From sequence record PQ416618.1: DNA of 64,000 bases. One strand, 5' to 3'. The position numbers were made by a program, and so were the translations under genes. Shown piece after piece: positions 4,777 through 64,000 of this stretch (positions are counted from its first letter, which is position 1; each line of letters opens with the position of its first letter). The DNA is from Escherichia phage vB_VIPECOMC06. The notes below the pieces were generated by a model. It ran no database searches, was not told the origin of the DNA, and was given only the letters and a program-made list of their open reading frames with translations.

Positions 4777-4802
4777 CATGAATTAAAACAATAGGAACAA
4801 AA

Positions 4803-5381: not shown

Positions 5382-5402
5382 GGCCTATACTTAGGCCTAT
5401 TT
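5381..5402 (+). terminator. stem-loop, putative terminator after IPIII-like gene
   Basis: AGGCCTA-TACT-TAGGCCT perfect 7-bp stem followed by ATTT. Confidence 0.4.
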
Positions 5403-5419
5403 ACATTTAAAGGACACAT

Positions 5420-5749
5420 ATGAAAACATATCAAGAGTTTATCACTGAAGTTACATTATCTGCGGAACAGAAAGCTGCTATCGAAGAAGGTAAAAATCCC
5501 AAAGTAACATATAAAGTAAATAGTAAAGGCGTTTTTGATGGCTTGGTTCAAGACCCTGAATTGAAAAAAGCTCTTTCTAAAACTAATGCGTACTTTGCTC
5601 CTAAATTTAACACAGCCGGTGTACTTATTGGATTGGATGTATTCAACTCTAAAGGTGTTCTATCTAGTGCCTTTGGTTATGCCGCTAACAAAATTACCAA
5701 AGCCGCATGGGAATCCAATACCAAACAAGCTCAAAAGCCTAGAGTATAA
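5420..5749 (+). CDS. internal protein (109 aa)
   Basis: N-terminus MKTYQEFITE. Confidence 0.7.
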   Translation: MKTYQEFITEVTLSAEQKAAIEEGKNPKVTYKVNSKGVFDGLVQDPELKKALSKTNAYFAPKFNTAGVLIGLDVFNSKGVLSSAFGYAANKITKAAWESNTKQAQKPRV

Positions 5750-11967: not shown

Positions 11968-12183
11968 ATGTTATATGACCCAAGCGGTTGTTCTGAAGAT
12001 GGTGTGATTGTTCTGGAGCCTGAGCATCCAGTTGGTGATGTATATCGCACCGTTGAAGTATGCGAATGTAATTTCGTTGAAGGTAATACTGGCGGAATTT
12101 CCATTGAGCAAGATGATGATGTTATTTACCTGGATGCAAGCCAAGTAGAAGCTCTTTATAACATTTTAAAACATAATCGGTAG
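11968..12183 (+). CDS. hypothetical protein (~71 aa), member of tandem paralog pair
   Basis: Starts MLYDPSGCSEDGVIVLEPE; SD GAGGAAA. Confidence 0.4.
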   Translation: MLYDPSGCSEDGVIVLEPEHPVGDVYRTVEVCECNFVEGNTGGISIEQDDDVIYLDASQVEALYNILKHNR

Positions 12184-12221
12184 TTTACGTCTTGGTAGGA
12201 CTATGATATAGTAATCCTACC
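12183..12221 (+). promoter_or_regulatory. early promoter with flanking inverted repeat (PeSL-like)
   Basis: GTTTAC, TGATATAGT; GGTAGGACTA / TAATCCTACC arms. Confidence 0.55.
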
Positions 12222-12528
12222 AAAACAAATGGAGAACAAAATGAAACTTTTGCTTATCGCTTATGTTGTAGTACAATACAATTATCCGATGTTTACTTAT
12301 AACATGGTAAACGGCATAGTGAATCTTATTGAAACGAGTATGGTAAAATGACCCGTGAACAAGCTAATAAATTGATGGACCTTATCCATGACTTACGTGA
12401 AGCCGATTCAGATTTGAATGATGTAGCTTATCACGCGGTAAATGATAACGGAGACTTTTATGAAAATCAGGTTGATGCTTGCCAGAATGCTTTGGTGAAT
12501 TTTGTTGAAACTTTAATTGGTGAATAAT

Positions 12529-16061: not shown

Positions 16062-16349
16062 ATGGATTTTATGCAAAAAATTAAAGCCGCAGTAGAACTG
16101 TATGCTCATCGTATGGTTAGTTCTACAATGCAATATAGCGAGGAGGTTCGCCAGGACTCTTCCTTGAAAGGAAAAACTAAAGCCTTAATTACCTTAGATC
16201 GTTTGCAAAAGAATGCCCTAGAGTTGTTCCAGTACGACAAGGATGCATATAAGAAAGAACAGGAAGAGAAACTTAAATCTGAAAAATTACAGAAAATTCC
16301 GAAATCAGTTTGGTTCAGTGGAAAAAATACCGAAAAAAGTTTCTTTTAG
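16062..16349 (+). CDS. hypothetical protein (95 aa)
   Basis: ORF, Lys/Glu-rich. Confidence 0.4.
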   Translation: MDFMQKIKAAVELYAHRMVSSTMQYSEEVRQDSSLKGKTKALITLDRLQKNALELFQYDKDAYKKEQEEKLKSEKLQKIPKSVWFSGKNTEKSFF

Positions 16350-16351
16350 TT

Positions 16352-16386
16352 GTTTACAAGGTCTATGGTTATGTTATTATAGACCT
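16352..16386 (+). promoter_or_regulatory. early promoter with flanking inverted repeat (PeSL-like)
   Basis: GTTTAC, TGTTATTAT; AGGTCTAT / ATAGACCT arms. Confidence 0.55.
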
Positions 16387-16407
16387 ATCAACTACTGGAG
16401 GTAAAAC

Positions 16408-16935
16408 ATGAACGCTAAAGATATTTTCAACCTGGTAAATTATAACGACGGTAAATTTAAATCTGAAGCACAAAGCAAGTTCTTTAATGACGTTGCTTAT
16501 GGTAACGAGATTACCGTGGACGGAGGTCAGATTTTCAAATCTCGCTGGAATTGGATTGTTATCATCGATTCAGTTGGAATTGTGGAAGTCTACAAAAACA
16601 CTAACAAAAAACGTACATTATTCTGGTCTCGTGAAACTAACGAGCAGTACAAAAAGGATAAAGCATCTCGTTTATCTAAAGTAACCCAGGAAGATATCGA
16701 GTTTATCAAGAAAGATATCGAGATGTACGAAAATTTAATCGCTGAAGACCAGGCAGTACTCGATAAGTTTGATGAAATTAAAGCTTCTCGTGAAATCCCT
16801 GACTTCATGAAAGAAACAGTAAACGAACGATACGCTCTCACTTCAGAACGTATTGCAAACTATACAAAACAGAAAGCAGAACGTATTAGTACTCTTCGGA
16901 AATTTGAAGAACGTTTAAAGACGGTTCACGCATAA
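16408..16935 (+). CDS. hypothetical protein (175 aa)
   Basis: SD GGAGG; downstream of promoter cassette. Confidence 0.45.
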   Translation: MNAKDIFNLVNYNDGKFKSEAQSKFFNDVAYGNEITVDGGQIFKSRWNWIVIIDSVGIVEVYKNTNKKRTLFWSRETNEQYKKDKASRLSKVTQEDIEFIKKDIEMYENLIAEDQAVLDKFDEIKASREIPDFMKETVNERYALTSERIANYTKQKAERISTLRKFEERLKTVHA

Positions 16936-16997
16936 ACGCTTTACCCAAGGACGGGTTATAATGGTTCTGAGTTCCAATTAAATCTGAGGAAATAGTT

Positions 16998-17993
16998 ATG
17001 AGCATTACATCTGATGCGGTAAAACATGAAATTAACGGTTTATGTGCTTCACAGATTAAAGTGTGGTTTAAAGACCATAATGATCGCAGAGCACTTAATT
17101 ATGAGCAAATTGCTATCCAAGTTCATCAATTACTGACTAGTAAATTTGATTTTCATATGCCGTCTGAAATCTATACTAATCTACCGCGAGCGCTTATTAA
17201 AGCGTGTAAAGGTTATGGAAAATCAATGGCTGATGGAATCTTCAGCGCGCTGAATAAACTTAACGTTCTGTCGATGATTAACTCTAACAACATCCTGCGT
17301 AATCTAGGACGTACTGATTTGTTCGGTCGTGAACAGTGTAAAATGCCTTTGAAATGGATTGTTGCTCATCTTAACGAGAACCAAACACGTTTTATGGCTG
17401 TATCAGCACGCTTACAAATGGGCCTAGATCGTCAGATGAACTTTAAAACTCATCCACGTTATTCAGGTTCAACAGACTTTTATAAATGTGAGCTTCAAAA
17501 GGTTGCAGGTAAAACTGTCTTAGTAGTTCGTGTAACGTTTGAAGGACGACGTCAAGGATATTTTGACCTAATCGGCTCTGGTCTTAAACATTGTGGATTT
17601 ATTGACGAAGTTGATATCAAGCGAGACAGCATTGGATACCGTATTGGATATGTTTGTACTCTTAAAGAAGAGATTTCAGGACCAGTACCAGGACTAAAAG
17701 ACGTTAGATATAAAGACGAGCTCGTTGAAGAAATAAAAGAAGTTGAATATGATATCAACCAAGAAGATGCTCTTAAAGACCTTATTGATGAACTAAACCA
17801 AGACGTTATTCCGGTTCAGAAATTTGAATCAAAACATGCTGAGCAAATCAAATACTTTGAAGCTTTGATTAACGAACTTAATGTAACTATTCAACAGACT
17901 GACGATGAAATCTCGCGATTAGCAGGCTTAAACGGTAAAAATAAAACGGAACGAGCTAATCTTATTCAGGTAGTAAAACTTCTTAAGGAATGA
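16998..17993 (+). CDS. hypothetical protein with C-terminal coiled coil (331 aa)
   Basis: SD GAGGAAA; heptad-like C-terminus. Confidence 0.5.
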   Translation: MSITSDAVKHEINGLCASQIKVWFKDHNDRRALNYEQIAIQVHQLLTSKFDFHMPSEIYTNLPRALIKACKGYGKSMADGIFSALNKLNVLSMINSNNILRNLGRTDLFGREQCKMPLKWIVAHLNENQTRFMAVSARLQMGLDRQMNFKTHPRYSGSTDFYKCELQKVAGKTVLVVRVTFEGRRQGYFDLIGSGLKHCGFIDEVDIKRDSIGYRIGYVCTLKEEISGPVPGLKDVRYKDELVEEIKEVEYDINQEDALKDLIDELNQDVIPVQKFESKHAEQIKYFEALINELNVTIQQTDDEISRLAGLNGKNKTERANLIQVVKLLKE

Positions 17994-18022
17994 TGTACAA
18001 CCAAGGATGGTTGGAGTATAAT
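17994..18022 (+). promoter_or_regulatory. repeated promoter cassette CAACCAAGGATGGTTGGAGTATAAT (copy 1)
   Basis: TGTACA -35-like, palindrome CAACCA-AGGA-TGGTTG, -10 TATAAT. Confidence 0.55.
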
Positions 18023-18048
18023 AAATTTTTCAACATGAGGAATATAAA

Positions 18049-18981
18049 ATGGCTTTTATTACACGTAGAGAACTTATCAAAGAATTTACCTCGAACGCAT
18101 ATACTCCAGGACCTAATCCTATCCGTATGCCTGTAAAGACTCCTGAAGAGATTGAGGAAATCTGTTCATATTATGGGATTAATTCTCGTAAGTTTACTCA
18201 ATTTGAATGCGTTACTAACACACCCGTTAAAGAGTTCATTAAAAATGGTGAGTTCAGCCGTTTATTAGCCAAACAGAAACTTCGTAATTTTTGTATCGGC
18301 GGTGAAGGACAATATTTCGCTAAGCAGTTCAGGAATAACCTTAACAATCTGATGGCCATTGCTTCTCGTATTCGTCCTCAAGCAATTAACATGAAACATT
18401 TGAAATATACTTACGATAAGTTAGAAATCATGGTTATCAGTGAGAACGAGTTCACTCTTAAGTATAAACCTAAGAATGATAACGTTGCTCGTGTATTCCA
18501 CCAAGCGTTGGAAGTTTTAGGTGATAATATCCACCAGATTAAAGCAATTTATTCTCGTGAGCTTAATATTATCGACCCTATCAAGAATAAGGGCCATATC
18601 GCTATCCAGGCTCGTGTATCTATTGGTAAAAAGGTTCCTGCGCCATGGTGGCACAAAGACTCTGAATATTATAAAAATCTTAAAAAGGAAAATGCAACGT
18701 TTGAAGCGTCAATTATTGTCGCCCCGACTATCGGTAAGATTAACGCAGCTTCAGCACAACCTGTTATGTTTAACGGCACGTCTTCGACTAAACTGGAAAT
18801 CTCTAATGGTCTTCTTCCTGCCGAAGATTACTATTATAATCAAATCAAAGCCACTGTGGACCAACTGTCTGTTGAACTTGACAAAGCACAAGCTAAGCTT
18901 CGTGATGCTCAACAAGTAGTTACCAAGCTCCAGTTGCAGTACTCTAAACTTTTTAACGCAATGAATGCATTAAAATCATAA
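18049..18981 (+). CDS. hypothetical protein with C-terminal coiled coil (310 aa)
   Basis: Preceded by CAACCAAGGATGGTTGGAGTATAAT cassette; C-terminal LDKAQAKLRDAQQVVTKLQLQ. Confidence 0.5.
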   Translation: MAFITRRELIKEFTSNAYTPGPNPIRMPVKTPEEIEEICSYYGINSRKFTQFECVTNTPVKEFIKNGEFSRLLAKQKLRNFCIGGEGQYFAKQFRNNLNNLMAIASRIRPQAINMKHLKYTYDKLEIMVISENEFTLKYKPKNDNVARVFHQALEVLGDNIHQIKAIYSRELNIIDPIKNKGHIAIQARVSIGKKVPAPWWHKDSEYYKNLKKENATFEASIIVAPTIGKINAASAQPVMFNGTSSTKLEISNGLLPAEDYYYNQIKATVDQLSVELDKAQAKLRDAQQVVTKLQLQYSKLFNAMNALKS

Positions 18982-18985
18982 ATCA

Positions 18986-19015
18986 GTTTACAACCAAGGA
19001 TGGTTGGAGTATAAT
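18986..19015 (+). promoter_or_regulatory. repeated promoter cassette (copy 2)
   Basis: GTTTAC, CAACCAAGGATGGTTGG, TATAAT. Confidence 0.6.
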
Positions 19016-19043
19016 CTTTCTATCTTAACGAGAGGAAAATATT

Positions 19044-19994
19044 ATGACACGTTCACATTACATTGATTATTTTGCAGGTCTTATCGCTAACGTTCATGCC
19101 CAACGTGCTTCTGGTTCATTAGGATTTGATGTTCCACACCGAGTTGTAGTAAGTGGTATTCTTCGCGATTTTGGTACATACACAGGCCAAGAAAATCATA
19201 TCTGTAAAGATACTCAGAATGCGTATTCTCATTCATTAGGGACACTGCTTCAATGGTTCAAACGTTCTCGTTTATTATCTTCTACTGTAGCTCGCGATAA
19301 CATTAAAAACTTTATGAAGCCGAGCTTTATTAAATCTGTGACATCTAAAACCGATTTGGTTGAATTTACTATTATTAACGATGTTAAAAAGACTCATTTA
19401 GCTGATTGGTTATCTACCATTCCTGAAACTAAATTTGCTGATAAATTTGCTTGTGAATTCAATAACCAAGTGAATATGCTTTTTAAACATTCTCGTAAAT
19501 TATTCACAGGTGGCGATGATCGTACAAATAAAGTTCATGTTAAAGATTGGGTTACTGCAGTATTCAAACCGACCGGTAATGGTAACGCATCATTGTCAAT
19601 TGATATCCAGGTTCCGTATTACTACTCACGTAATCTCGGCACCATGAAAGCTGAAGAAATTAAGAAGCACAACAAAACCATTCGTTCGCTGTCTTATAAA
19701 CTTCGCATGATGTTAAGAATCATGGACGTGGTAGAAATGTATGATGAAACCGAAGATAACGGTTCAATGTTATTCAGTTCTCGTATTCAAATTAAGCTGA
19801 AGAACCCTAACGAGTATAAGCCTAAGCCTATTAAAGAGACTAAAGCAGAAAAAGCTGATAATTTAAGAGAAGAACGCGAATATCTCAAATCTCGTCTGAA
19901 AGAAGTCGAAGCCCAGATTGCAGAACAAACTAAATCATTAAAAGCTCTGAATGCAAAAGCTGATGGTTTACGAAATGCTATTGAGGTTTTATAA
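19044..19994 (+). CDS. hypothetical protein with C-terminal coiled coil (316 aa)
   Basis: Preceded by the same promoter cassette; C-terminal LKSRLKEVEAQIAEQTKSLKALNAKADGL. Confidence 0.5.
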   Translation: MTRSHYIDYFAGLIANVHAQRASGSLGFDVPHRVVVSGILRDFGTYTGQENHICKDTQNAYSHSLGTLLQWFKRSRLLSSTVARDNIKNFMKPSFIKSVTSKTDLVEFTIINDVKKTHLADWLSTIPETKFADKFACEFNNQVNMLFKHSRKLFTGGDDRTNKVHVKDWVTAVFKPTGNGNASLSIDIQVPYYYSRNLGTMKAEEIKKHNKTIRSLSYKLRMMLRIMDVVEMYDETEDNGSMLFSSRIQIKLKNPNEYKPKPIKETKAEKADNLREEREYLKSRLKEVEAQIAEQTKSLKALNAKADGLRNAIEVL

Positions 19995-20299
19995 TGAAAC
20001 TACGTCTTTTAGAGGATATTGATATGAGCACTAATCACGGCTTGGTTAAGTTTATTGACGATAGTTCAAAGATTGAATTTGTTCAGCGAGATAAAATCCA
20101 CGGTGAAGAAGAGTTCGTTCCTCCGGCATGGAACGAAATCATGAAAATGGTTGAACGACGTGAAAATGCTGCCAAATCGGCAGCAAAACATCCGTGCCCG
20201 GAATGTGGAACTATCCAAGTCCAACTGGTTAACTGGACCACTGATAACTTGAAATTGAAATGCCGTAAATGCTTCCACAAATTTGAGAGAACATTATAA
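19994..20299 (+). CDS. zinc-ribbon protein (101 aa)
   Basis: CPECG...CRKCFH four-Cys motif. Confidence 0.45.
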   Translation: MKLRLLEDIDMSTNHGLVKFIDDSSKIEFVQRDKIHGEEEFVPPAWNEIMKMVERRENAAKSAAKHPCPECGTIQVQLVNWTTDNLKLKCRKCFHKFERTL

Positions 20300-20712
20300 T
20301 GAGATATAGCCTTCGTTGTTTTATCGCAGCTTTAGTTTTTGCCATCATTCCATTCATTTGGAACAGCCAGAATACTTACATGGAAACTAAAGTAATTCCT
20401 GTGGAGGTAGTGGAATTAATCTCAGGCCAATCTACAGGAAAATATTCTAAATTGGAATTTATTGCAGTTTATAAAGATGAACAAGGTCGAGTTTTTGACA
20501 GGCATGTATCACCGTCGTTTTATACGCTTCTGAATAAAGGTGATACGATAGCTATAGAAATTCGTGAGATGGATATCAAACAAACTACTAAAGATAACTT
20601 GATTTGGTTCTTTGGTACAGTGTTGTTGGTTTCTATCTGTATCACAGGTTTTATTACATGTATTGTATTTGGCATTACATATTTAATCGATGAAAGGAAA
20701 AATAATGTTTAA
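20299..20712 (+). CDS. predicted membrane protein (137 aa)
   Basis: N- and C-terminal hydrophobic helices. Confidence 0.45.
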   Translation: MRYSLRCFIAALVFAIIPFIWNSQNTYMETKVIPVEVVELISGQSTGKYSKLEFIAVYKDEQGRVFDRHVSPSFYTLLNKGDTIAIEIREMDIKQTTKDNLIWFFGTVLLVSICITGFITCIVFGITYLIDERKNNV

Positions 20713-21449: not shown

Positions 21450-21620
21450 ATGCAAGTTAAATTATTGTACCGTTTATTAAAAAATGGCAAGCATGATTGG
21501 TATTTGCTTATTAAAACCGATCCGAATTTTTTCTCTGGACAACCATTTACAGTTCGTCCTACTAAACGTCAGCTTCGCAAAGCTAAACGTTCTCATCATA
21601 ACTTTTATAGAGAATATTGA
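21450..21620 (+). CDS. small basic protein (~56 aa)
   Basis: ATG at 21450; C-terminus VRPTKRQLRKAKRSHHNFYREY; paralog of the ORF at 22046. Confidence 0.35.
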   Translation: MQVKLLYRLLKNGKHDWYLLIKTDPNFFSGQPFTVRPTKRQLRKAKRSHHNFYREY

Positions 21621-22045: not shown

Positions 22046-22225
22046 TGAAAACTGCATTATTTTTTGGCGAAAGAACAAACGGTCAAAAATCTTGGAAATT
22101 TGTTATGATTGGTGCTCCAAACAATCCGAACATGAGGACTTCAATCATTTCTGTAACACGTCCTACTAAAAGAATGATTCGCCAATACAAACGTTTCCAT
22201 CGTGACTTTTATAACATTTATTAAA
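22046..22225 (+). CDS. small basic protein (59 aa)
   Basis: Below track cutoff; C-terminus VTRPTKRMIRQYKRFHRDFYNIY parallels the ORF at 21450. Confidence 0.3.
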
Positions 22226-49907: not shown

Positions 49908-50156
49908 ATGGAATTATTCGTAGCTAGTTCAGTAGCTGTTTTAATCGCAGGTATTGGTTCAATCATCATTTACATGTTGCCTTGGGTAATCGCACTTATT
50001 CGTGGCACAAAAAGCACAACAGCAATCTTTTTTGTATCTTTACTCTTTAACTGGACGATGATTGGTTGGATTGGAACTTTAATTTGGTCTATCGTTGCCG
50101 AAAAGAAATCTGCTCAGCAGCCTCAACAAGTAATTATTATTCGCGAAAAAGAATAA
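49908..50156 (+). CDS. small inner-membrane protein (82 aa)
   Basis: Two hydrophobic helices; size and topology reminiscent of superinfection-immunity-type proteins. Confidence 0.45.
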   Translation: MELFVASSVAVLIAGIGSIIIYMLPWVIALIRGTKSTTAIFFVSLLFNWTMIGWIGTLIWSIVAEKKSAQQPQQVIIIREKE

Positions 50157-50160
50157 ACTT

Positions 50161-50198
50161 GTTTACATTATAGATGGACTATAGTATAGTAGTCCTAT
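50161..50198 (+). promoter_or_regulatory. early promoter with flanking inverted repeat (PeSL-like)
   Basis: GTTTAC; GGACTAT / TAGTCC arms around TATAGT. Confidence 0.5.
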
Positions 50199-50219
50199 CA
50201 AATCAACTAAGGAGTTAAA

Positions 50220-50513
50220 ATGAAAAAGTTATCATTGGCAGCAATCTTACTTGCAGTATCATGTGCACCGGCTCCAGTTACGGCAGGTTATGATAAAGAC
50301 CTCTGTGAGTGGTCAATGACTGCAAATCAAGAAGATGTTGAACAACAAATCTTCTCTGATATCATGAACATCACTAAACGAGACCGTCCTAATATGGTTA
50401 ATAAAGTTGTTGAACAACTTAAGTCTGGCGGTATCATGCAGTACAATTATGTTTTGTATTGTGACCCTAATTTCGATAACAAAGATATCGTAACCGAAAT
50501 CACAGGTGAATAA
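50220..50513 (+). CDS. sp: spackle-like periplasmic protein (97 aa)
   Basis: Signal peptide MKKLSLAAILLAVSCAPAPVTAG; mature part GYDKDLCEWSMT...YNYVLYCD; size and locus (41-61 interval) as T4 sp. Confidence 0.45.
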   Translation: MKKLSLAAILLAVSCAPAPVTAGYDKDLCEWSMTANQEDVEQQIFSDIMNITKRDRPNMVNKVVEQLKSGGIMQYNYVLYCDPNFDNKDIVTEITGE

Positions 50514-56479: not shown

Positions 56480-57226
56480 ATGTTATCAAATAATAAAATT
56501 AACAAAATCAATCGTCGTCTTGACCACACCAGAGCTTCTGCGAAGAGACGCTCTAAGGATTTTAACTTAGACTTTAATTACCTTAAAAACATTCTTGATC
56601 AAAAGGTCTGCGCTTACTCAGGTGAATCTTTCAATAACTCTGTTGAAGGTGAGAAATTATCCTTAGAACGTTTTAATAATGATATAGGCTACATTAAAGG
56701 TAATGTTATCCCAGTTAAGAAAAAATATAACACGGCTCGTTCTGATTTAACATTAGAAGAGCTTATTGAGAAACGTGATGCCATTGCAAGACGTATCGCT
56801 AATCCTTCTGCCCGTAAAGTAGAGAAACTTAACCTCGACGAGAAGAAATGGGCCCAAATTAAAAAGGTTTATGGTACTATTTTAAAAATCCGAGCAAAAC
56901 GTGAAAATCGTGTTAAGCATATGGCGAACATGATGAAAAATCAACCTTTATCTAACGAATCTAAACTTAGAATTGTTGCTTTGAAAGCACGCATTAATGG
57001 CTCACATCAAGCAGAAGGCCATGAACTTACTAAACTCAACGTTCTTCTTAAAGGCTCTGACTGGAAAACTAAAACTAAATTAACTGACGCTGAATCGCTT
57101 TTCGATACATATGATAAAGTTATCCAAGGTCTGCAACGTTTTGAAAAGATCGGTTTCATTGGTAAATTAAAATTGAAACGTGGCTTACCACTTAGCGCAT
57201 CATTATTCCAACTGATTAAAGGTTAA
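56480..57226 (+). CDS. hypothetical basic protein (248 aa), possibly Srd-like
   Basis: Position corresponds to T4 srd (upstream of dda.1/dda); assignment is positional only. Confidence 0.4.
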   Translation: MLSNNKINKINRRLDHTRASAKRRSKDFNLDFNYLKNILDQKVCAYSGESFNNSVEGEKLSLERFNNDIGYIKGNVIPVKKKYNTARSDLTLEELIEKRDAIARRIANPSARKVEKLNLDEKKWAQIKKVYGTILKIRAKRENRVKHMANMMKNQPLSNESKLRIVALKARINGSHQAEGHELTKLNVLLKGSDWKTKTKLTDAESLFDTYDKVIQGLQRFEKIGFIGKLKLKRGLPLSASLFQLIKG

Positions 57227-57228
57227 TT

Positions 57229-57540
57229 ATGGTTTATGTATATGCAATAGTTTATCGAGATATGGAAGGATTTACTGTCCCGGTTCCACTTGATGAGCAT
57301 CGTCCTGCAGTATTTTTTAGAAAGGATATTGCAGATAAAGTTTTCGATACTTTGAAAACACAGTATAAAACAGATTTAAAAATGGGAGTTCTAAGAATGG
57401 TCGAAACTCCGCGTAAGTTCTGGTTTAATAAGCTTGAAATGAAACACGTTAAACTGGATGCGGAGACGCAAAAATTGTATCAACGAATCCTGGACACAGG
57501 CCGTATTGTTAGTATTCCAATTGCAGGGACTTTACGATGA
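57229..57540 (+). CDS. hypothetical protein (103 aa)
   Basis: Immediately upstream of dda, ATGA-coupled. Confidence 0.45.
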   Translation: MVYVYAIVYRDMEGFTVPVPLDEHRPAVFFRKDIADKVFDTLKTQYKTDLKMGVLRMVETPRKFWFNKLEMKHVKLDAETQKLYQRILDTGRIVSIPIAGTLR

Positions 57541-58850
57541 CATTTGATGATTTGACTGAAGGCCAGAAAAACGCCTTCAACGTTGTTATGAACGCTATTA
57601 AAGAAAAGAAACATCACGTAACTATTAATGGGCCTGCTGGTACAGGTAAAACAACCCTTACTAGATTCATCGTTGAAGCCCTTATTTCTTCTGGAGAATC
57701 AGGTATTATTTTAGCAGCCCCTACACATGCCGCTAAAAAGGTTCTAAGCAAACTTGCTGGACAAGAAGCATCGACTATTCATAGCATTCTTAAAATCAAC
57801 CCAACTACATACGAAGAAAACGTATTGTTTGAACAGAAAAAGGTTCCCGACTTAGCCTTGTGCCGTGTACTGTTATTTGATGAAGCATCAATGTGCGACC
57901 GTTCTCTGTTTAAAATAATGTTAGCTAGTATCCCTAAATGGTGTACAGTAATTGGAATCGGCGACCGATGCCAGATTCGTCCAGTAGACCCAGGCGAATC
58001 AACTGCGTATCTAAGTCCTTTCTTCACTCACAAAGACTTCGTGCAATGCAACCTTACAGAAGTTAAACGTAGCAATGCGCCAATTATTGATGTTGCGACT
58101 GATATTCGTAATGGCAAATGGATTTATGATAAAGTAGTTGATGGACATGGTGTTCATGGATATACAGACCTTAAATCGTATATGATGAACTATTTTAATG
58201 TCGTTAAAACTCCTGAAGACCTTTTCGAAAATCGAATGATGGCATTCACAAATAAGTCGGTGGACAAGTTAAATTCAATTATTCGCCGAAAACTTCTTGA
58301 AACAGAAAAACCATTTATTAAAGACGAAGTCATTGTTCTACAAGAGCCATTTACTAAGACATATAAGCTAGATGGTAAAAATATGACCGAAATGCTTTTC
58401 AATAACGGTCAATTCGTTCGTATTCGAGATGCTGTAGAAACGTCTACATTCGTTAAAGCACGTGGTGTTTCGGGCGAATATATGATACGATACTGGAATC
58501 TTACAGTAGAAACATATGGGGATGATGAAGAATACATCCGTGAAGATATAAAGGTTATTTCTTCTGAAGAAGAGCTTTATAAATTCAATTTGTTTTTGGC
58601 TAAGACAGCAGAAACATACAAATTCTGGAATAAAGGTGGTAAAGCTCCATGGAGCGAATTCTGGGATGCTAAACGTATGTTCACTAAGGTGAAGGCACTA
58701 CCAGTATCAACCTTCCATAAGGCTCAGGGTATGTCTGTTGACACGGCCTTTGTTTATACACCGTGTATCCATTATGCCGATTCAGAATTAGCTAAACAGT
58801 TATTGTATGTCGGCACAACTCGTGGCCGGTTTGACGTCCATTTTATTTGA
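57537..58850 (+). CDS. dda: SF1 DNA helicase Dda
   Basis: Walker A GPAGTGKTT, Walker B LFDEASM, C-terminal YVGTTRG; 437 aa. Confidence 0.9.
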   Translation: MTFDDLTEGQKNAFNVVMNAIKEKKHHVTINGPAGTGKTTLTRFIVEALISSGESGIILAAPTHAAKKVLSKLAGQEASTIHSILKINPTTYEENVLFEQKKVPDLALCRVLLFDEASMCDRSLFKIMLASIPKWCTVIGIGDRCQIRPVDPGESTAYLSPFFTHKDFVQCNLTEVKRSNAPIIDVATDIRNGKWIYDKVVDGHGVHGYTDLKSYMMNYFNVVKTPEDLFENRMMAFTNKSVDKLNSIIRRKLLETEKPFIKDEVIVLQEPFTKTYKLDGKNMTEMLFNNGQFVRIRDAVETSTFVKARGVSGEYMIRYWNLTVETYGDDEEYIREDIKVISSEEELYKFNLFLAKTAETYKFWNKGGKAPWSEFWDAKRMFTKVKALPVSTFHKAQGMSVDTAFVYTPCIHYADSELAKQLLYVGTTRGRFDVHFI

Positions 58851-58859
58851 GAGAAAATT

Positions 58860-59537
58860 ATGAGCACTGATGTTATTATAGATTTTGAAACATTCGGCAA
58901 TACATCAAAAGCGGCTGTTATTGACCTTGCGGTTATTGCATATAATTCCGGCCCTGAAGTTGTTGAATCATTTGAAGAACTTGTTCAACGAGGTAAGCGA
59001 ATTAAATTTAATTTAGCTTCTCAGAAAGGGAAGCGAGTTTTCGCTAAATCCACTATGAAATGGTGGAAAGAACAATCGGCTGAAGCACGTAAAAACTTGG
59101 CTCCGTCTGAAGACGATGTCACTACGCTTGAAGGCATTAAAATCTTTTTAGATTATTGTCGAGCTAATAAAGTTGACCAATGGAAATCACAGATGTGGTG
59201 CCGTGGTATGAGCTTTGACTTCCCGATCTTGGTCGATTTGATTCGTGACCTCTATCGTGATGAAGGTGTTCTTGAACCAGATATTGATACTGATAAATTA
59301 GAACCGGTTAAATTCTGGGCTCAACGTGATATTCGTACGGCAATCGAAGCTTACTCGTTGACACGAGGATTAAGTATGTGTCCATTACCGATGGGTACGC
59401 TAAAAGGATTCATTGCCCATGATAGTATTCATGATTGTGCTAAAGATATTTTGATGTTAAAATATGCTCAGCGTTATGCGCTTGGCCTTGAAGATGTCCC
59501 TGAGAATCCTGACCCGTTAAGTGTAAAACAGCGATAA
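58860..59537 (+). CDS. dexA: exonuclease A (DEDD-type)
   Basis: N-terminal IIDFETFG exonuclease motif; 225 aa; adjacent to dda as in T4. Confidence 0.85.
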   Translation: MSTDVIIDFETFGNTSKAAVIDLAVIAYNSGPEVVESFEELVQRGKRIKFNLASQKGKRVFAKSTMKWWKEQSAEARKNLAPSEDDVTTLEGIKIFLDYCRANKVDQWKSQMWCRGMSFDFPILVDLIRDLYRDEGVLEPDIDTDKLEPVKFWAQRDIRTAIEAYSLTRGLSMCPLPMGTLKGFIAHDSIHDCAKDILMLKYAQRYALGLEDVPENPDPLSVKQR

Positions 59538-59542
59538 AACCA

Positions 59543-59572
59543 GTTTACAACCAAGGATGGTTGGAGTATAAT
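59543..59572 (+). promoter_or_regulatory. repeated promoter cassette (copy 3)
   Basis: GTTTAC, CAACCAAGGATGGTTGG, TATAAT; same sequence as at 18986. Confidence 0.6.
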
Positions 59573-59601
59573 GAATTCAATTAAACAAAGAGAGAGAAAT
59601 T

Positions 59602-60057
59602 ATGATTACTATTGGTGAAATTAAGTATGTATCGCCTGTATCTCGTTCTAAAGCTGCAGGACGATTGGTTGAAGTGGTGGGACTTCGCACAAATGGCATG
59701 GGACGCATTAAAGAAGTTAAAGTTCGAATCATTCATAACTCCGGGCAAAAAGATGTTCAGTTCGCTTATGTAAGTCCTAAATTCTTGGAAACTCCTGCGA
59801 GCGCTCATTCTGCTTCTACCGAACCTAATGTACAGTTCAAATGGGCCCTTTGCAAAGGCGTTGAATTTATAACCGATAAAGAATTTGATTACATCGACGA
59901 ATACGGTTATCCAAGCAAAACTGATACTATGTGTGGCTTCATTAGTGACCAATGGGTTGAAGATGGTGAAAAGCTATACAATATCGTATTCTTAGGTGAC
60001 TTCCGAGTTGTTAAAGAATCTGAAATCACTCGCTATGTGTCTCCTCGTAAAGCTTAA
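59602..60057 (+). CDS. hypothetical protein (151 aa), tandem paralog A
   Basis: Shares FKWxLC..GFISDxWVEDGxKLYNIVF with the next ORF. Confidence 0.5.
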   Translation: MITIGEIKYVSPVSRSKAAGRLVEVVGLRTNGMGRIKEVKVRIIHNSGQKDVQFAYVSPKFLETPASAHSASTEPNVQFKWALCKGVEFITDKEFDYIDEYGYPSKTDTMCGFISDQWVEDGEKLYNIVFLGDFRVVKESEITRYVSPRKA

Positions 60058-60066
60058 GGAATTATT

Positions 60067-60486
60067 ATGAATATTGTAAATCTCTCTACAGGTGATTACG
60101 TATATGTATCTGTTGCTTCTCACTCTAAAGTTGCCGGGAAGTTGGTTGAAGTTCTTTCTGTGAGTGATCCGGTTTTTGGACGTAACCAAGTTAAAGTTCG
60201 TGATGCTAATGGTAATATTGGTTACGTTAAAAGCCAATTCATTGAACCAGAAGAAAAAGCGTTCAAATGGGGACTATGCAGATCAGTTTCTGTTGAAAAA
60301 GACCATGAATTCACTATTGCTGCGGCAACTGATGGAACACCGTGGAAAACTAAGCAAATCGCCGGATTTATTAGCGACCGTTGGGTAGAAGATGGTGTTA
60401 AGCTTTATAACATCGTTTTCGCTGGACAGTTCATGGTAGTTCCTGAATTCCAAATTAAAAAATATAGCCCAGCTGCTTTCGCATAA
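60067..60486 (+). CDS. hypothetical protein (139 aa), tandem paralog B
   Basis: Paralog of the ORF at 59602. Confidence 0.5.
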   Translation: MNIVNLSTGDYVYVSVASHSKVAGKLVEVLSVSDPVFGRNQVKVRDANGNIGYVKSQFIEPEEKAFKWGLCRSVSVEKDHEFTIAAATDGTPWKTKQIAGFISDRWVEDGVKLYNIVFAGQFMVVPEFQIKKYSPAAFA

Positions 60487-60490
60487 AGTT

Positions 60491-60541
60491 GTTTACTTCT
60501 CCTCCGGTTTTGATATTATAACCATATCAACCAGAGGAGAA
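60491..60541 (+). promoter_or_regulatory. early promoter cassette with SD-pairing inverted repeat
   Basis: GTTTAC, TGATATTAT; TTCTCCTCCGGTT vs AACCAGAGGAGAA (12/13 complementary). Confidence 0.5.
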
Positions 60542-60545
60542 TAAT

Positions 60546-61070
60546 ATGTTAGTTTACCGCGTAGAACGTAGTTTTTGTACTCAACGTGAATCATTACCAG
60601 GAATTGCTATCGAAGATGGTAAAGCCGTCAGAATTTGGGAAACCTCTTGGAATAAAGAACCTCGCTCGCCATACGGTTGGTCGGGCACCGACAACTCTGA
60701 AGAAACATGGGAGTTCCTTGATAAGCATGGAATAATCTCAGGTAACTTCTACCATCACGGCGACAACTATAATGTCCCTAATCGTCCTACAGTAAATGAA
60801 GACAAACTCCTTGAACAAAATATCTTAAGATACCATAGAATTGAGCACACATTTGAATTGAGTGAAGATTGGGCTCAAGGGTTCTATTTTGGATTTGAAA
60901 GTGTTGACGCGGTTTATGCATGGTTTGATGACCAGATGGATGTTGAACTCTTGAAAGCTAAAGGATACTACATCGCGATCTATGAAGCACCTGATTTCAT
61001 CCTCGGAAGTTGTCAATTAATGTTTAGACGTTCATTGGCAGAACAAGTTGATTTTATTTTGCTAAAATGA
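60546..61070 (+). CDS. hypothetical protein (174 aa)
   Basis: SD GAGGAGAA. Confidence 0.45.
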   Translation: MLVYRVERSFCTQRESLPGIAIEDGKAVRIWETSWNKEPRSPYGWSGTDNSEETWEFLDKHGIISGNFYHHGDNYNVPNRPTVNEDKLLEQNILRYHRIEHTFELSEDWAQGFYFGFESVDAVYAWFDDQMDVELLKAKGYYIAIYEAPDFILGSCQLMFRRSLAEQVDFILLK

Positions 61071-61103
61071 TGTACAACAACTACGGTCTATGATACTATA
61101 GAC
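61071..61103 (+). promoter_or_regulatory. early promoter variant with flanking inverted repeat
   Basis: TGTACA, TGATACTAT; GGTCTAT / ATAGACC arms. Confidence 0.45.
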
Positions 61104-61127
61104 CTATCAAAACAAGAGGAGAATATT

Positions 61128-61355
61128 ATGAAACGTCAAATCATTAAAAACGTGACTACTGATTCAAACATCGATGAGTTTGAAGATGTTCTGTTTAATC
61201 CTGATTTAGTTGTTGTACAGAAAAACTGGACCGAATTTTTATGCTACACTGAAGTGGTTTACGTTTATGAAAAACTCGGTGATGAAATGCCTATCTATGG
61301 TATCTTCCGTGAAATCACTGAAAACGGTACAACTTATTGGAAGGAAACTTACTAA
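61128..61355 (+). CDS. hypothetical protein (75 aa)
   Basis: SD AGAGGAGAA. Confidence 0.4.
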
Positions 61356-61765
61356 TGGCTAATAAATTCCGCGTTAACTCATGGTACCAATTTATAGATA
61401 AACGTGCCCAAGAAGAGTTTATTAAAGACCACACTGATAACGGGATTTATGCACGACGTCTTGGCATGGAACCATTTAAAGTATTAGATGTTGACCATCT
61501 TGGTCGTCCTACTAAAATTGTGACATCTACTGGCACGGTTGGATACGCAACAGGCGGTGATATTCTTGATGAAAACTTTATCTGGCTCTCTACTAGTGAA
61601 GCAGAGTTTTTTGACGAAGTGGGAAATCCATATCAAGCGTCTGAAGAGCAAGATTCTGGTGAACTTGACGAATTGACTGAATTTCCTGTGATGACGATTA
61701 CTATCGAAAATAACGACCAGGCATGGTCTTTGTATCAAATGTTGAAAGCACATTTTAAGGAATAA
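61355..61765 (+). CDS. hypothetical acidic protein (~136 aa)
   Basis: ATG at 61355 overlapping upstream stop (TAATG). Confidence 0.45.
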
Positions 61766-61767
61766 TA

Positions 61768-61947
61768 ATGCCGTTATACGACTATAAATGTCAATCTGAA
61801 GATTGTGGTCATGAATATGAAAAAATTAAAAGGATCTCTGAACGAGAAAACGATGTTTGCCCTGAATGTCATCGTCTGTCTACTCGTCGGGTTTCTGCTC
61901 CTAAACATGTAAATGGTGGTTTTTACGACTTACTTAAGAAGGGTTAA
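61768..61947 (+). CDS. FmdB-type zinc-ribbon protein (59 aa)
   Basis: MPLYDYKCQSEDCGHEYE...CPECH; below track cutoff. Confidence 0.4.
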   Translation: MPLYDYKCQSEDCGHEYEKIKRISERENDVCPECHRLSTRRVSAPKHVNGGFYDLLKKG

Positions 61948-61949
61948 TT

Positions 61950-62375
61950 ATGGCTTTTAAAGGTTTTGAAGTTGGTAAGAAATATCGTATTATCAAAGGA
62001 CAGGAAGATAATTTCTTGAGAATGCTTAATACGACTGGTAAACGTCTTAATACTAATCTGCATACTACTTTATTGTCCAAAGATTTTATTGTAGAAGAGA
62101 TGATTGGTTACGGCGTTTCGATTATTGCTGTAGAAGCCGTAGGCGATTATGGCCGAACTATTCATAGTATGCAAGGTGATATTCTGCTTTATGGTGCAGA
62201 ATTTAAATTCTTTGAAGAAGTTCCGGAACCAGATACAGCTGTCGATTTCAAAAAAGGCTCTGTAGAATTTGTTGATGGTTCGGTGATCGTATCAGGTGAT
62301 GTGGTCATTACAGTTAAAAGTGAACAAGGGCGTTTGGCTGCAATTGATGCACTTCAGAAAATTAAATTTAAATAA
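61950..62375 (+). CDS. hypothetical protein (141 aa)
   Basis: Followed by GGGC-TTCG-GCCC-TTTTT terminator. Confidence 0.45.
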   Translation: MAFKGFEVGKKYRIIKGQEDNFLRMLNTTGKRLNTNLHTTLLSKDFIVEEMIGYGVSIIAVEAVGDYGRTIHSMQGDILLYGAEFKFFEEVPEPDTAVDFKKGSVEFVDGSVIVSGDVVITVKSEQGRLAAIDALQKIKFK

Positions 62376-62392
62376 GGGCTTCGGCCCTTTTT
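62376..62392 (+). terminator. rho-independent terminator upstream of gene 39
   Basis: GGGC-TTCG-GCCC followed by TTTTT. Confidence 0.75.
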
Positions 62393-62438
62393 GCTTTAGA
62401 TTTCGGATGATAGAATACCTTCATAACGAGGAGACAAC

Positions 62439-64000
62439 ATGATTAAAAATGAAATTAAGGTATTGTCAGATGTAGAACATATTAAGAAACGCAGTGGCAT
62501 GTATATTGGTTCTTCGGCCAAAGAAGCCCACGAGCGTTTTTTGTTTGGTAAATATCAACAAGTTGAATATGTTCCTGGTCTGGTTAAATTAATCGATGAG
62601 ATTATTGACAACTCGGTTGATGAAGCTATTCGTACATCATTTAAGTTTGCAAATAAAATCGATGTGCAAATTAAAAATAATCAAGTTTCGGTGGAAGATA
62701 ACGGACGTGGTATTCCTCAAGGTTTAGTTACTGACCAAACAGGTGAACAAATTCCTGGGCCTGTAGCAGCCTGGACTATTCCAAAGGCTGGCGGCAACTT
62801 TGGCGATGACTCTGAACGCAAGACTGGTGGTATGAACGGCGTCGGGAGTAGTTTAACTAATATCTTCTCTACGTTGTTTACAGGCATCACGTCAGATGGC
62901 GAAAATGAAATCACCGTTAACTGTTCAAACGGAATGGAAAACAAATCATGGTCTTCTAAGAAATCTAAAGGTAAAGGCACTAAAGTAATCTTCACTCCTG
63001 ATTTCTCTTCATTTGAAGAACATAATTTATCTCAAATTTATTTAGATATTACTTTAGACCGACTTCAAACGTTGGCAGTCGTTTATCCTGATATCAAGTT
63101 CACATTTAATGGTAAAAAGGTTGATGGTAATTTTAAACGATTTGCTAAACAATTTGGCGAAGATAACATCATTCAAGAAAATGATAAAGTCTCTATAGCA
63201 TTCACAACATCACCAGACGGCTTCCGTCATTTAACTTATGTGAATAACATCCATACTAAAAATGGCGGTCATCATGTTGAATGTGTAATGGATGATATCT
63301 GCGAACATCTTTTGCCGGGTATTAAAAAGAAATATAAGGGTATTGAAGTCACTAAAGCTCGTGTTAAAGAATGCCTCACAATGTTGATGTTTATTAGAGA
63401 CATGAGCAACATGCGTTTTGATTCTCAGACTAAAGAACGTTTAACGTCAACGTATGGTGATATTCGTAATCATATCCAATTAGATGCTAAGAAAATTGCT
63501 CAGGCACTTCTTAAAAACGAAGCCTTGATTATGCCTATTGTTGAAGCAGCATTAGCTCGTAAATTGGCAGCAGAAAAGGCTGCAGAAACTAAAGCAGCTA
63601 AAAAGGCAACTAAAGCTAAGGTTCATAAGCATATTAAAGCTAACCAATGCGGTAAAGATGCAGATACGACATTGTTCTTAACAGAAGGTGATTCAGCAAT
63701 TGGTTATCTCATTGATGTTCGTGACCGTGAACTACACGGCGGATTCCCATTACGTGGTAAGGTGATGAATAGCTGGGGTATGTCATATGCTGATATGATG
63801 AAGAACAAAGAGCTCTTTGATATCTGTGCTATCACAGGTCTTATTCTTGGTGAAAAGGCAGAGAATACAAACTATCGTAATATTGCAATTATGACCGATG
63901 CCGATCATGACGGTCTTGGAAGTATTTATCCGGCTTTGCTTGCTTTCTTTAGTAATTGGCCTGAATTGTTTGAACAAGGACGTATTCGCTTTGTTAAAAC
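62439..64000 (+). CDS. 39: DNA topoisomerase II large subunit gp39 (GyrB-like), 5' partial
   Basis: GHKL ATPase motifs EIIDNSVDE, DNGRGIP, GGMNGVGSS; TOPRIM region TEGDSA; runs off the window end. Confidence 0.9.
   Translation, partial: MIKNEIKVLSDVEHIKKRSGMYIGSSAKEAHERFLFGKYQQVEYVPGLVKLIDEIIDNSVDEAIRTSFKFANKIDVQIKNNQVSVEDNGRGIPQGLVTDQTGEQIPGPVAAWTIPKAGGNFGDDSERKTGGMNGVGSSLTNIFSTLFTGITSDGENEITVNCSNGMENKSWSSKKSKGKGTKVIFTPDFSSFEEHNLSQIYLDITLDRLQTLAVVYPDIKFTFNGKKVDGNFKRFAKQFGEDNIIQENDKVSIAFTTSPDGFRHLTYVNNIHTKNGGHHVECVMDDICEHLLPGIKKKYKGIEVTKARVKECLTMLMFIRDMSNMRFDSQTKERLTSTYGDIRNHIQLDAKKIAQALLKNEALIMPIVEAALARKLAAEKAAETKAAKKATKAKVHKHIKANQCGKDADTTLFLTEGDSAIGYLIDVRDRELHGGFPLRGKVMNSWGMSYADMMKNKELFDICAITGLILGEKAENTNYRNIAIMTDADHDGLGSIYPALLAFFSNWPELFEQGRIRFVK

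What the first reader, a model, noticed from the sequence alone, without database searches (positions are those of the whole stretch)
59602..60486. Tandem paralog pair behind the third copy of the repeated promoter cassette
The ORFs at 59602 and 60067 share FKWxLC and GFISDxWVEDGxKLYNIVF blocks and follow the same CAACCAAGGATGGTTGGAGTATAAT cassette that precedes the coiled-coil genes about 40 kb away. This is evidence of cassette-mediated module exchange.
Basis: seen in the sequence. Interest (0 to 1): 0.4.

Follow-up and report, generated by a model that had tools for sequence, protein, structure and literature searches.

The report
MotB gene pair behind recombining promoter
Two related early genes of an RB69-like T4-type phage (both members of the MotB DNA-binding family) sit behind a repeated early-promoter cassette, and comparison with other phages shows that genes have been lost by recombination between copies of that cassette: a clear new example of two things that were already known.

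Summary
The 25-mer CAACCAAGGATGGTTGGAGTATAAT occurs exactly three times (17998, 18991, 59548; none expected by chance). ORFs 59602-60057 and 60067-60486 are paralogs (42% identity, E 1e-30).

The window is a Mosigvirus (RB69-like) early region: dda, dexA, cassette, MotB-A, MotB-B, motB.2-like, cef. Both ORFs pass the Pfam motB threshold. Two motB copies in RB69 are already published, and RB51 and A2 carry the same pair.

The cassette is a sigma-70 early promoter (TTTACA-N17-TATAAT) with a 6-4-6 palindrome in its spacer. This matches the published PeSL (promoter-early stem-loop) elements.

- Most Mosigviruses carry a third paralog, motB.1-like, between dexA and MotB-A, flanked by two cassette copies. 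The window and at least 15 other phages lack it and keep one chimeric cassette.
- The 993-bp module between window copies 1 and 2 (DUF7235 gene) is missing from 21 records, with the junction inside the cassette.

The MotB pair itself was not created or moved by the cassette. It is an old duplication with no promoter between the genes. Verdict: a real feature, but a new instance of a known kind. Interest is low to moderate.

The parts
59544..59572 (+). Cassette copy 3: early sigma-70-type promoter. -35 TTTACA at 59544-59549, 17-nt spacer, -10 TATAAT at 59567-59572. The spacer holds a palindrome: CAACCA 59548-59553, loop AGGA, TGGTTG 58-63 (59558-59563). Compared with phages that carry motB.1, it is a chimera: 5' flank and core of the dexA-proximal copy joined to the 3' flank of the motB-proximal copy.
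   Evidence: (11 of 12 consensus matches)
59602..60057 (+). MotB-A, 151 aa. Member of the MotB family and ortholog of RB69 motB and RB51 MotB (81-89% identity); 48% identical to T4 MotB.
   Evidence: (PF17613, E 5.8e-36, 124 bits against a cut-off of 25)
60067..60486 (+). MotB-B, 139 aa. Second MotB-family paralog, probably co-transcribed with MotB-A (9-nt gap, own Shine-Dalgarno AAGGA, no promoter between). Ortholog of RB69p010 and of RB51 ORF010c, which is annotated 'similar to motB' (88% identity).
   Evidence: (PF17613, E 2.1e-20)
58860..59537 (+). dexA (exonuclease A). Its stop codon lies 7 nt before the -35 hexamer of cassette copy 3.
17994..18022 (+). Cassette copy 1: weaker -35 (TGTACA), identical spacer and -10. 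Left border of the 993-bp module.
18049..18981 (+). 310-aa DUF7235 gene with a C-terminal helical tail. It is the cargo of the 993-bp module bounded by copies 1 and 2. Present in 132 Mosigvirus-type records and absent from 21.
18987..19015 (+). Cassette copy 2: -35 TTTACA, identical spacer and -10. Its 3' flank CTTTCTATCTTAAC is shared with the dexA-proximal copy of phages that carry motB.1. It drives the 316-aa gene at 19044-19994.
60492..60519 (+). A separate early promoter of a different type, in front of the motB.2-like gene (60546-61070). It marks the downstream end of the MotB-A/MotB-B transcription unit.

Best explanation
Window 59544-60486 is one early transcription unit of an RB69-like (Mosigvirus) T4-type phage. 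A strong sigma-70 early promoter drives two co-transcribed MotB-family genes.

By homology to T4 MotB, the two proteins are small all-beta, two-barrel DNA-binding proteins made early in infection. They would act on nucleoid or phage DNA, possibly by altering H-NS binding. This function is inferred, not shown here.

The promoter belongs to the PeSL class (promoter-early stem-loop). These are compact intergenic cassettes made of an upstream stop codon, a -35 box, a stem-loop, a -10 box, a Shine-Dalgarno sequence and an ATG. They recur in the hyperplastic regions of T4-type genomes and serve as short direct repeats for recombination.

Shown here by comparison:
- The ancestral Mosigvirus arrangement was dexA, cassette, motB.1-like, cassette variant, MotB-A, MotB-B.
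- In the window's lineage, a crossover or slippage within the shared TGGAGTATAAT segment of the two cassettes removed motB.1 together with one cassette (557 bp). One chimeric promoter was left, and it now drives MotB-A and MotB-B directly.
- The same cassette bounds a second module 40 kb away (the 993-bp DUF7235 gene), which other phages have lost in the same way.

Inferred: the event used the phage's own homologous-recombination or replication machinery acting on 11-27 bp of identity, and it may have released a mini-circle.
For: Identity of the region: nearest relatives are Mosigviruses at 96-98%. RefSeq annotates the two genes as 'MotB-like transcriptional regulator' twice over.

MotB family: Pfam PF17613 at E 5.8e-36 and 2.1e-20, both above the 25-bit cut-off; phrog_1671 at E 5e-62 and 4.5e-50. 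The AF2 model of MotB-B is all-beta with two barrels (pLDDT 73.5), and its best PDB matches are tandem Tudor domains and eIF5A. T4 MotB biochemistry, and the statement that RB69 has two motB copies plus motB.1, come from PMC6070864 and PMC7827196.

Promoter: 11 of 12 consensus positions with a 17-nt spacer. It matches the T4/PST PeSL promoter consensus TTTACW-N17-TAYWAT (PMC4122927). Stem-loops between -35 and -10 are among the commonest PeSL layouts (PMC2839356).

motB.1 deletion: in O157tp3, HX01, SSE1, ESh15, mar005P1, WFK, phiE142, RB69 and one IMG/VR contig, motB.1 is flanked by two cassettes. The window and PTK have one cassette, with the upstream-type 5' flank and core and the downstream-type 3' flank. 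The same junction occurs at 93% identity or more in 17 records. The Tequatrovirus phages RB51, A2 and T4 also have motB.1 directly upstream of motB, so its presence is ancestral.

Second locus: AV110 and F27 lack exactly 993 bp, which equals the spacing of window copies 1 and 2. Their junction is the 5' flank of copy 1, the cassette, then the 3' flank of copy 2. The junction is found in 21 records and the gene in 132.
Against: The zone of identity at the motB.1 crossover is only 11-15 bp, short for classical homologous recombination. Slippage or illegitimate recombination would give the same product.

The hairpin is weak. Its predicted folding energy is no better than that of shuffled sequence (z about -1), and no U-run follows it, so a terminator role is not supported.

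No mini-circle or recombination intermediate can be observed from sequence. For the DUF7235 module there is no outgroup, so insertion cannot be formally distinguished from deletion.

DNA binding by MotB-A and MotB-B is extrapolated from a T4 protein that is only 44-48% identical and more basic (pI 9.2 against 7.7-7.8).
Confidence: 0.8

Rival explanations
1. The three cassette copies are independent strong early promoters kept alike by selection for promoter strength. They play no part in rearrangements, and the indels merely happen to lie in intergenic DNA.
For: All early promoters in the window share the -35 and -10 hexamers and A-rich upstream DNA. Intergenic promoter regions in this part of the genome are generally very conserved among Mosigviruses, so an invariant spacer is not peculiar to this cassette.
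Against: A 17 of 17 identical spacer is not needed for promoter function: the other dozen or so early promoters in the window have different spacers. Both indels have their two breakpoints inside the cassette, to the base. The surviving copy is a clean chimera of the two parental flanks, and 993 bp is exactly the repeat spacing.
Confidence: 0.05
2. The cassette is a site for a dedicated, structure- or sequence-specific recombination system, analogous to an integron attC or attI site. The spacer palindrome is the recognition element, and gene modules are excised and inserted actively.
For: The palindrome is kept through a double, compensatory change in the motB-proximal copy: CAACCA/TGGTTG becomes CATCCA/TGGATG in 9 of 9 genomes, while the neighbouring -35 and -10 hexamers vary. 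The PeSL authors themselves raised the possibility of a helper protein (PMC2839356).
Against: This is only one compensatory event. RB69 carries a variant that breaks the closing base pair. No recombinase or homing endonuclease gene lies next to either locus. Junctions are what simple repeat-mediated deletion produces. Other promoter spacers are equally conserved.
Confidence: 0.07
3. The tandem MotB pair is itself a recent product of cassette-mediated duplication. This is the strong form of the first reader's idea.
For: The two genes are adjacent, in the same orientation and clearly homologous. A third homolog with the same C-terminal domain lies next to them in relatives and is bracketed by cassettes.
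Against: MotB-A and MotB-B are only 42-46% identical. Each is 81-90% identical to its own ortholog in RB51, A2 and other Mosigviruses, so the duplication predates those lineages. No cassette or promoter lies between A and B: the gap is 9 nt.
Confidence: 0.03

Closest known systems
PeSL (promoter-early stem-loop) cassettes of T4-type phages: Arbiol et al. 2010, PMC2839356; Comeau et al. 2014, PMC4122927
   Same: Compact intergenic unit with the same parts: upstream stop codon, sigma-70-like -35 and -10 boxes 17 nt apart, stem-loop between them, Shine-Dalgarno sequence and ATG. It is repeated in hyperplastic early regions. Indels between close relatives have their breakpoints inside the element and leave a chimeric copy. 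The promoter consensus equals the published T4/PST type, TTTACW-N17-TAYWAT.
   Different: The published work covers RB49/phi1, T4/PST and KVP40/nt-1. RB69 has no mention in the 2010 paper's text, and the 2014 paper names only those pairs. The stem here is A/T- and C/G-mixed (CAACCA/TGGTTG), not the G-run/C-run of RB49 or the AGNA/TCNT of PST. It is weak, and there is no evidence that it terminates transcription. Mini-circles were not and cannot be tested here.
T4 MotB (modifier of transcription B; Pfam PF17613; Patterson-West et al. 2018 and 2021, PMC6070864 and PMC7827196)
   Same: Both window proteins match the family model end to end and share the invariant core (SxSKxAGxLVEV, VKVR, FKWxL, GxIxDxWVEDGxKLYNxVF). 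Both are early genes in the same dexA-cef interval and are predicted to be all-beta with two domains.
   Different: They are only 44-48% identical to T4 MotB, have a near-neutral pI rather than a basic one, and are present as a tandem pair. T4 has one copy. No biochemistry exists for either RB69-type copy.
T4 MotB.1 / phrog_2333 (LSm-like N-terminal domain plus MotB-type C-terminal domain; PMC12152347)
   Same: The gene deleted from this window's lineage belongs to this family. Its C-terminal 70 residues match the motB Pfam model (E 1.4e-8).
   Different: It is absent from the window. In T4 and RB69 it is truncated or split by a frameshift, whereas O157tp3, RB51 and A2 carry an intact version of 164-169 aa.
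Deletions between short direct repeats in T4 (rII deletions and similar; cited in PMC2839356 as Singer et al. 1982 and Mosig et al. 1998)
   Same: Precise loss of the DNA between two short direct repeats, leaving one repeat behind.
   Different: Here the repeats are functional promoters, so the survivor remains a working expression signal for the next gene.

Membership tests
MotB (Pfam PF17613) | Profile match above the curated gathering score over most of the protein | tested here: met
   ORF-A scores 124.2 bits (cut-off 25), residues 1-146 on profile positions 2-157. ORF-B scores 73.6 bits in two stretches, the best covering residues 65-139. phrog_1671 matches both over their full length.
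MotB (Pfam PF17613) | Two-domain all-beta architecture: KOW/SH3-like N-terminal domain plus a C-terminal beta-barrel, as predicted for T4 MotB by HHpred | tested here: inconclusive
   The AF2 model of ORF-B has pLDDT 73.5 and pTM 0.43. It shows two beta-barrel segments (11-55 and 72-135) joined by a low-confidence linker. Foldseek's best matches are 53BP1 tandem Tudor domains (E 8e-4, TM only 0.32-0.37), with eIF5A further down. This is compatible with the prediction but weak. No relative has a solved structure by sequence search.
MotB (Pfam PF17613) | Early gene in the dexA-cef interval of a Tevenvirinae genome | tested here: met
   dda, dexA, MotB-A, MotB-B, motB.2-like, cef, goF, gene 39, behind an early-type promoter.
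MotB (Pfam PF17613) | Non-specific DNA binding, toxicity to the host, association with H-NS | not testable with these tools
   Known only for T4 MotB (PMC6070864, PMC7827196).
PeSL (promoter-early stem-loop cassette) | Sigma-70-like early promoter with -35 and -10 boxes 17 nt apart, in an intergenic gap of a hyperplastic region | tested here: met
   TTTACA-17-TATAAT, 11 of 12 consensus positions. Searches show the intergenic position after a stop codon. The loci are the dexA-39 and nrdC regions.
PeSL (promoter-early stem-loop cassette) | Sequence able to form a stem-loop within or next to the promoter | tested here: met
   A 6-bp stem with a 4-nt loop between -35 and -10 is predicted in all copies and in the CATCCA/TGGATG variant. 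This position is one of the commonest published layouts. The energy is no better than that of shuffled sequence (z -0.7 to -1.2).
PeSL (promoter-early stem-loop cassette) | The stem-loop acts as a terminator or attenuator of upstream transcription | not testable with these tools
   No T-run follows the stem, and the terminator scan did not pick it up. A reporter assay is needed.
PeSL (promoter-early stem-loop cassette) | Shine-Dalgarno sequence and start codon of the downstream gene at the 3' end of the element | tested here: met
   a purine-rich Shine-Dalgarno sequence and the ATG lie 26-29 nt after the -10 box in all three copies.
PeSL (promoter-early stem-loop cassette) | Indels between closely related phages with breakpoints inside the element, leaving a chimeric copy | tested here: met
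   motB.1 module. DUF7235 module.
PeSL (promoter-early stem-loop cassette) | Formation of excised mini-circles during infection | not testable with these tools
   Needs inverse PCR on infected cells or virion DNA.

The most novel reading that the evidence does not exclude
The 6-4-6 palindrome in the promoter spacer is not incidental. On this reading it is a selected recognition or structure element: an operator, or a target for a structure-specific nuclease or recombinase. That would make the cassette an integron-like docking site, so that gene modules in RB69-like phages are excised and captured actively rather than by chance homology. The evidence does not exclude this. The palindrome survives a compensatory double substitution in all nine genomes examined, while the adjacent -35 and -10 hexamers vary. 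The same cassette also bounds two independent presence/absence polymorphisms, and all four combinations of the two are found in nature.
Probability: 0.07. Interest if true: 0.7.

Novelty: new member of a known kind. Interest (0 to 1): 0.25.

Why it matters
This is a clean natural example, in the RB69 group, of promoter cassettes acting as recombination joints. The two parental copies, the chimeric product and the population frequencies can all be read directly from public genomes. That extends the PeSL model to another genus and gives two well-defined substrates (557 bp and 993 bp) for testing it experimentally.

It also shows that the MotB locus is a small, turbulent gene family: motB.1, motB and a motB-like gene. 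Members of the family are duplicated, frameshifted, deleted and swapped between genera. This is relevant to anyone using T4 MotB as the model for how these phages deal with host nucleoid proteins.

It does not reveal a new kind of element or a new protein function.

Tried and rejected
- Population sample from IMG/VR. Searching with MotB-A gave only 3 loci, so I switched to the GenBank phage collection.
- RNA hairpin as a terminator. Fold energies of all cassette copies are within about 1 sd of shuffled sequence, and the terminator scan found nothing there. The terminator role stays unsupported.
- Unusual conservation of the cassette spacer as a sign of a separate function. Neighbouring, unrelated promoters (motB.2-like, cef) are just as invariant among Mosigviruses, so this argument was dropped.
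- The three tandem 310-331-aa genes with helical tails around copies 1 and 2 as paralogs. BLASTP finds nothing significant (best E 0.2), and they fall in three different PHROGs.
- Sequence search of the PDB with a MotB profile. Only a chance hit at E 0.14.
- Junction count at the dexA locus. The raw figure of 44 records covering at least 80% of the query includes phages that carry motB.1 and align at 87-88% identity. Only the 17 records at 93% or more were counted.
- Direct exchange of genes between the two loci 40 kb apart. No evidence was found. Only about 46 bp of promoter plus leader is shared between copy 2 and the dexA-proximal copy of phages that carry motB.1.

Full report
1. What is in the sequence

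The 25-mer CAACCAAGGATGGTTGGAGTATAAT occurs exactly three times, all on the + strand, at 17998, 18991 and 59548. No further copy appears within three mismatches, and shuffled sequence gave none. Aligning the three sites shows that identity is confined to about 27-32 nt, from (CAGTT)TACA to TATAAT, and that the flanks are unrelated.

The third copy starts 7 nt after the stop codon of the ORF at 58860-59537 and ends 29 nt before the ATG at 59602.

2. What the region is

The DNA is 96-98% identical to Mosigvirus (RB69-like T4-type) coliphages. Annotated relatives give this order: dda (57537-58850), dexA (58860-59537), two 'MotB-like transcriptional regulators', a hypothetical protein, cef, goF, and the gene 39 topoisomerase subunit. 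All are on the + strand, which is the direction of early transcription.

Both ORFs pass the curated Pfam threshold for motB (PF17613: 124 and 74 bits against a cut-off of 25) and match phrog_1671. The next gene, 60546-61070, is the homolog of T4 motB.2 (phrog_1106).

T4 MotB is an early, dispensable and toxic protein. It binds DNA without sequence specificity and co-purifies with H-NS and StpA (PMC6070864, PMC7827196). The 2021 paper already states that RB69 has two copies of motB, one motB.1 and a 29-aa fragment. RB51 annotates the second gene as 'similar to motB'. The tandem pair is thus known and annotated.

3. Age of the pair

A and B are 46% identical to each other in a multiple alignment. 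A is 81-89% identical to the first gene of the pair in O157tp3, RB51 and A2, and B is 88-98% identical to the second gene. T4 MotB is 44-48% identical to both.

No promoter separates A from B. The gap is 9 nt and holds only a Shine-Dalgarno sequence. The duplication is old, and the pair behaves as one transcription unit. T4 itself lacks the second copy.

An AlphaFold2 model of B, built on 19 sequences, has pLDDT 73.5. It is all-beta, with two barrel-like halves joined by a low-confidence linker. Its best PDB matches are tandem Tudor domains, with eIF5A further down the list, at weak scores. This fits the published KOW/SH3-like plus barrel prediction but does not prove it.

4. What the cassette is

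It is a sigma-70-type early promoter: TTTACA, 17 nt, TATAAT, matching 11 of 12 consensus positions. It is the best promoter-like site in 57000-62500. It fits the T4/PST early-promoter consensus TTTACW-N17-TAYWAT (PMC4122927). Its spacer contains a 6-bp/4-nt/6-bp palindrome (CAACCA AGGA TGGTTG).

The window holds more than a dozen other early promoters of the same general build, each with its own spacer. Many have inverted repeats that span the -10 box or pair with the downstream Shine-Dalgarno sequence.

This architecture is what Arbiol et al. (2010) and Comeau et al. (2014) named PeSL (promoter-early stem-loop): stop codon, A-rich DNA, -35 box, stem-loop, -10 box, Shine-Dalgarno sequence and ATG. 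[quoted passage not shown] Those papers treat RB49/phi1, T4/PST and KVP40/nt-1, not the RB69 group.

The hairpin here is weak, with z about -1 against shuffles. No T-run follows it, so I cannot support a terminator role.

5. Evidence that the cassette is a recombination joint

Locus A (dexA-motB). In O157 typing phage 3, a 164-aa gene lies between dexA and MotB-A. It is flanked by two cassette copies. The upstream copy is exact. The downstream copy is a variant, CATCCAAGGATGGATGGAGTATA(A/G)T. The same arrangement is seen in HX01, SSE1, ESh15, mar005P1, WFK, phiE142, RB69 and an IMG/VR contig.

The extra gene belongs to the motB.1 family (phrog_2333). Its C-terminus carries the MotB core motif (Pfam motB, E 1.4e-8), so it is a third and more distant paralog.

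The window and phage PTK have a single cassette. Its 5' flank and core are those of the upstream copy, and its 3' flank (GAATTCAATTAAACAAAGAGAG...) is that of the downstream copy. The crossover must lie in the shared TGGAGTATAAT segment, which is 11 nt, or 15 nt in genomes such as ESh15 whose upstream copy is followed by GAAT.

The junction occurs at 93% identity or more in 17 records, representing 15 phages. RB51, A2 and T4 (Tequatrovirus) also have motB.1 directly upstream of motB. Presence is therefore ancestral, and the window carries a deletion.

Locus B (nrdC region). AV110 and F27 match window 16300-20400 except for a gap of exactly 993 bp, which is the spacing of copies 1 and 2. Their junction is the 5' flank of copy 1, the cassette, then the 3' flank of copy 2. 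This junction is present in 21 records. The DUF7235 gene that lies between the copies is present in 132 records, all of Mosigvirus type.

All four combinations of the two polymorphisms exist:
- the window has DUF7235 but not motB.1;
- AV114 to AV116, AV118 and JM17 lack both;
- F2, WFK and p000v have motB.1 only;
- RB69, HX01 and O157tp3 have both.

This implies recurrent events or reassortment by recombination.

6. Wider mosaicism of the interval

Gene order differs between genera. T4 has dexA, motB.2, motB.1, motB, cef. Mosigvirus has dexA, (motB.1), motB-A, motB-B, motB.2-like, cef. In both, motB.2 travels with its own similar promoter.

RB51 and A2 are 94% identical to T4 from dexA.1 through motB.2. 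They then switch, at the motB.1 start codon, to a segment that is 81-85% identical to Mosigvirus DNA and runs through motB.1, motB and the motB-like gene. Their dexA, by contrast, is only 68-69% identical to the Mosigvirus gene. The three-gene motB module has therefore been exchanged between genera, with borders at gene boundaries.

RB69's own motB-proximal cassette is a hybrid. Its 3' part matches the RB51/T4 motB leader, and the switch again falls at GGAGTATAA.

7. Mechanism, with shown and inferred steps

Shown:
- promoter-consensus match and position;
- paralogy and family membership;
- two deletion junctions inside the cassette;
- the chimeric nature of the window's copy;
- ancestral presence of motB.1.

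Inferred:
- the promoter fires early;
- the deletion arose by the phage's recombination or replication machinery acting on 11-27 bp of direct repeat, possibly releasing a mini-circle as shown for RB49;
- MotB-A and MotB-B bind DNA as T4 MotB does.

Loss of motB.1 is probably close to neutral. T4 delta-motB.1 has a normal burst size and latent period (PMC12152347). The gene is frameshift-truncated in T4 and split in RB69.

8. Rivals

- Independent convergence of promoters does not explain 17 of 17 identical spacers or breakpoints that are exact to the base.
- A dedicated site-specific system is not excluded. The palindrome is preserved through a compensatory A:T to T:A change in 9 of 9 genomes. 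But this is one event, RB69 breaks the closing pair, no recombinase lies nearby, and other promoter spacers are equally conserved.
- A recent cassette-mediated origin of the A/B pair is contradicted by the identity matrix.

9. Verdict

Both components are already described: the MotB paralogs, including two copies in RB69, and PeSL-mediated shuffling. What is new is a well-documented instance in the RB69 group, with defined substrates and population frequencies. I rate it a new member of a known kind, with interest 0.25.

Noticed in passing
window 60478-60550: The early promoter in front of the motB.2-like gene carries a strong hairpin (-19.9 kcal/mol, z -4.9, 0 of 200 shuffles as stable). Promoter-spacer bases CTCCTCCGG pair with the Shine-Dalgarno region CCAGAGGAG. 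In read-through RNA from the MotB genes the ribosome-binding site would be sequestered, while RNA started at this promoter would have it free. Family D2 has the same design at 7828, 11458, 26057 and 55524.
   Followed up: partly
window 508-577, 1803-1872, 12177-12246, 50155-50224, 61064-61133: A second family of early promoters (repeat family D1) has an inverted repeat that brackets the -10 box (GATAGGACT ... AGTCCTATC). This is another PeSL subtype. Copies are 60-77% alike over 70 nt.
   Followed up: no
L003 (T4) 3642-3800 and L016 (RB69) 3877-4373: T4 motB.1 (119 aa) is a frameshift-truncated version of the 164-169-aa gene of O157tp3, RB51 and A2. The DNA after its stop codon still encodes ...VELLNVVHAGEYSVVPRSAVVAILN. 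RB69 motB.1 is likewise split, into 132 + 29 aa. The gene is decaying independently in several lineages and is deleted in this window.
   Followed up: partly
L015 (RB51) 1501-3000 and L014 (A2) 1501-2988: The Tequatrovirus phages RB51 and A2 carry a motB.1-motB-motB-like block that is 81-85% identical in DNA to Mosigvirus, while their flanking dexA and motB.2 are 94% T4-like. A2 MotB.1 is 95% identical in protein to the O157tp3 protein. This is an exchange of a three-gene module between genera. RB51 keeps a remnant of the T4-type motB 3' end (a duplicated GCATAAA) at the right junction.
   Followed up: partly
window 16998-19994: Three consecutive genes of 331, 310 and 316 aa each end in a long heptad-like helical tail. 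They show no detectable pairwise similarity (best BLASTP E 0.2) and fall in three different PHROGs; only the middle one has a Pfam family (DUF7235). Several GenBank records mislabel all of them 'thioredoxin'.
   Followed up: partly
window 3610-5448: Four gene starts share a 36-nt block (ATGAAAACATATAAAGAATTTAT...) at spacings of 845, 341 and 617 nt. This suggests another tandem family of small paralogous early genes.
   Followed up: no
window 21555-21609 and 22159-22213: A 55-nt direct repeat (76% identity) lies 604 nt apart inside coding sequence. It may mark another pair of adjacent paralogs.
   Followed up: no
L004 1997-2040, L011 358-400 compared with window 18989-19030: The four bases directly after the -10 box are polymorphic between CTTT and GAAT at both the nrdC-locus copy and the dexA-locus copy in different phages. 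This suggests that patches of sequence are copied between cassette copies at distant loci (gene conversion).
   Followed up: no
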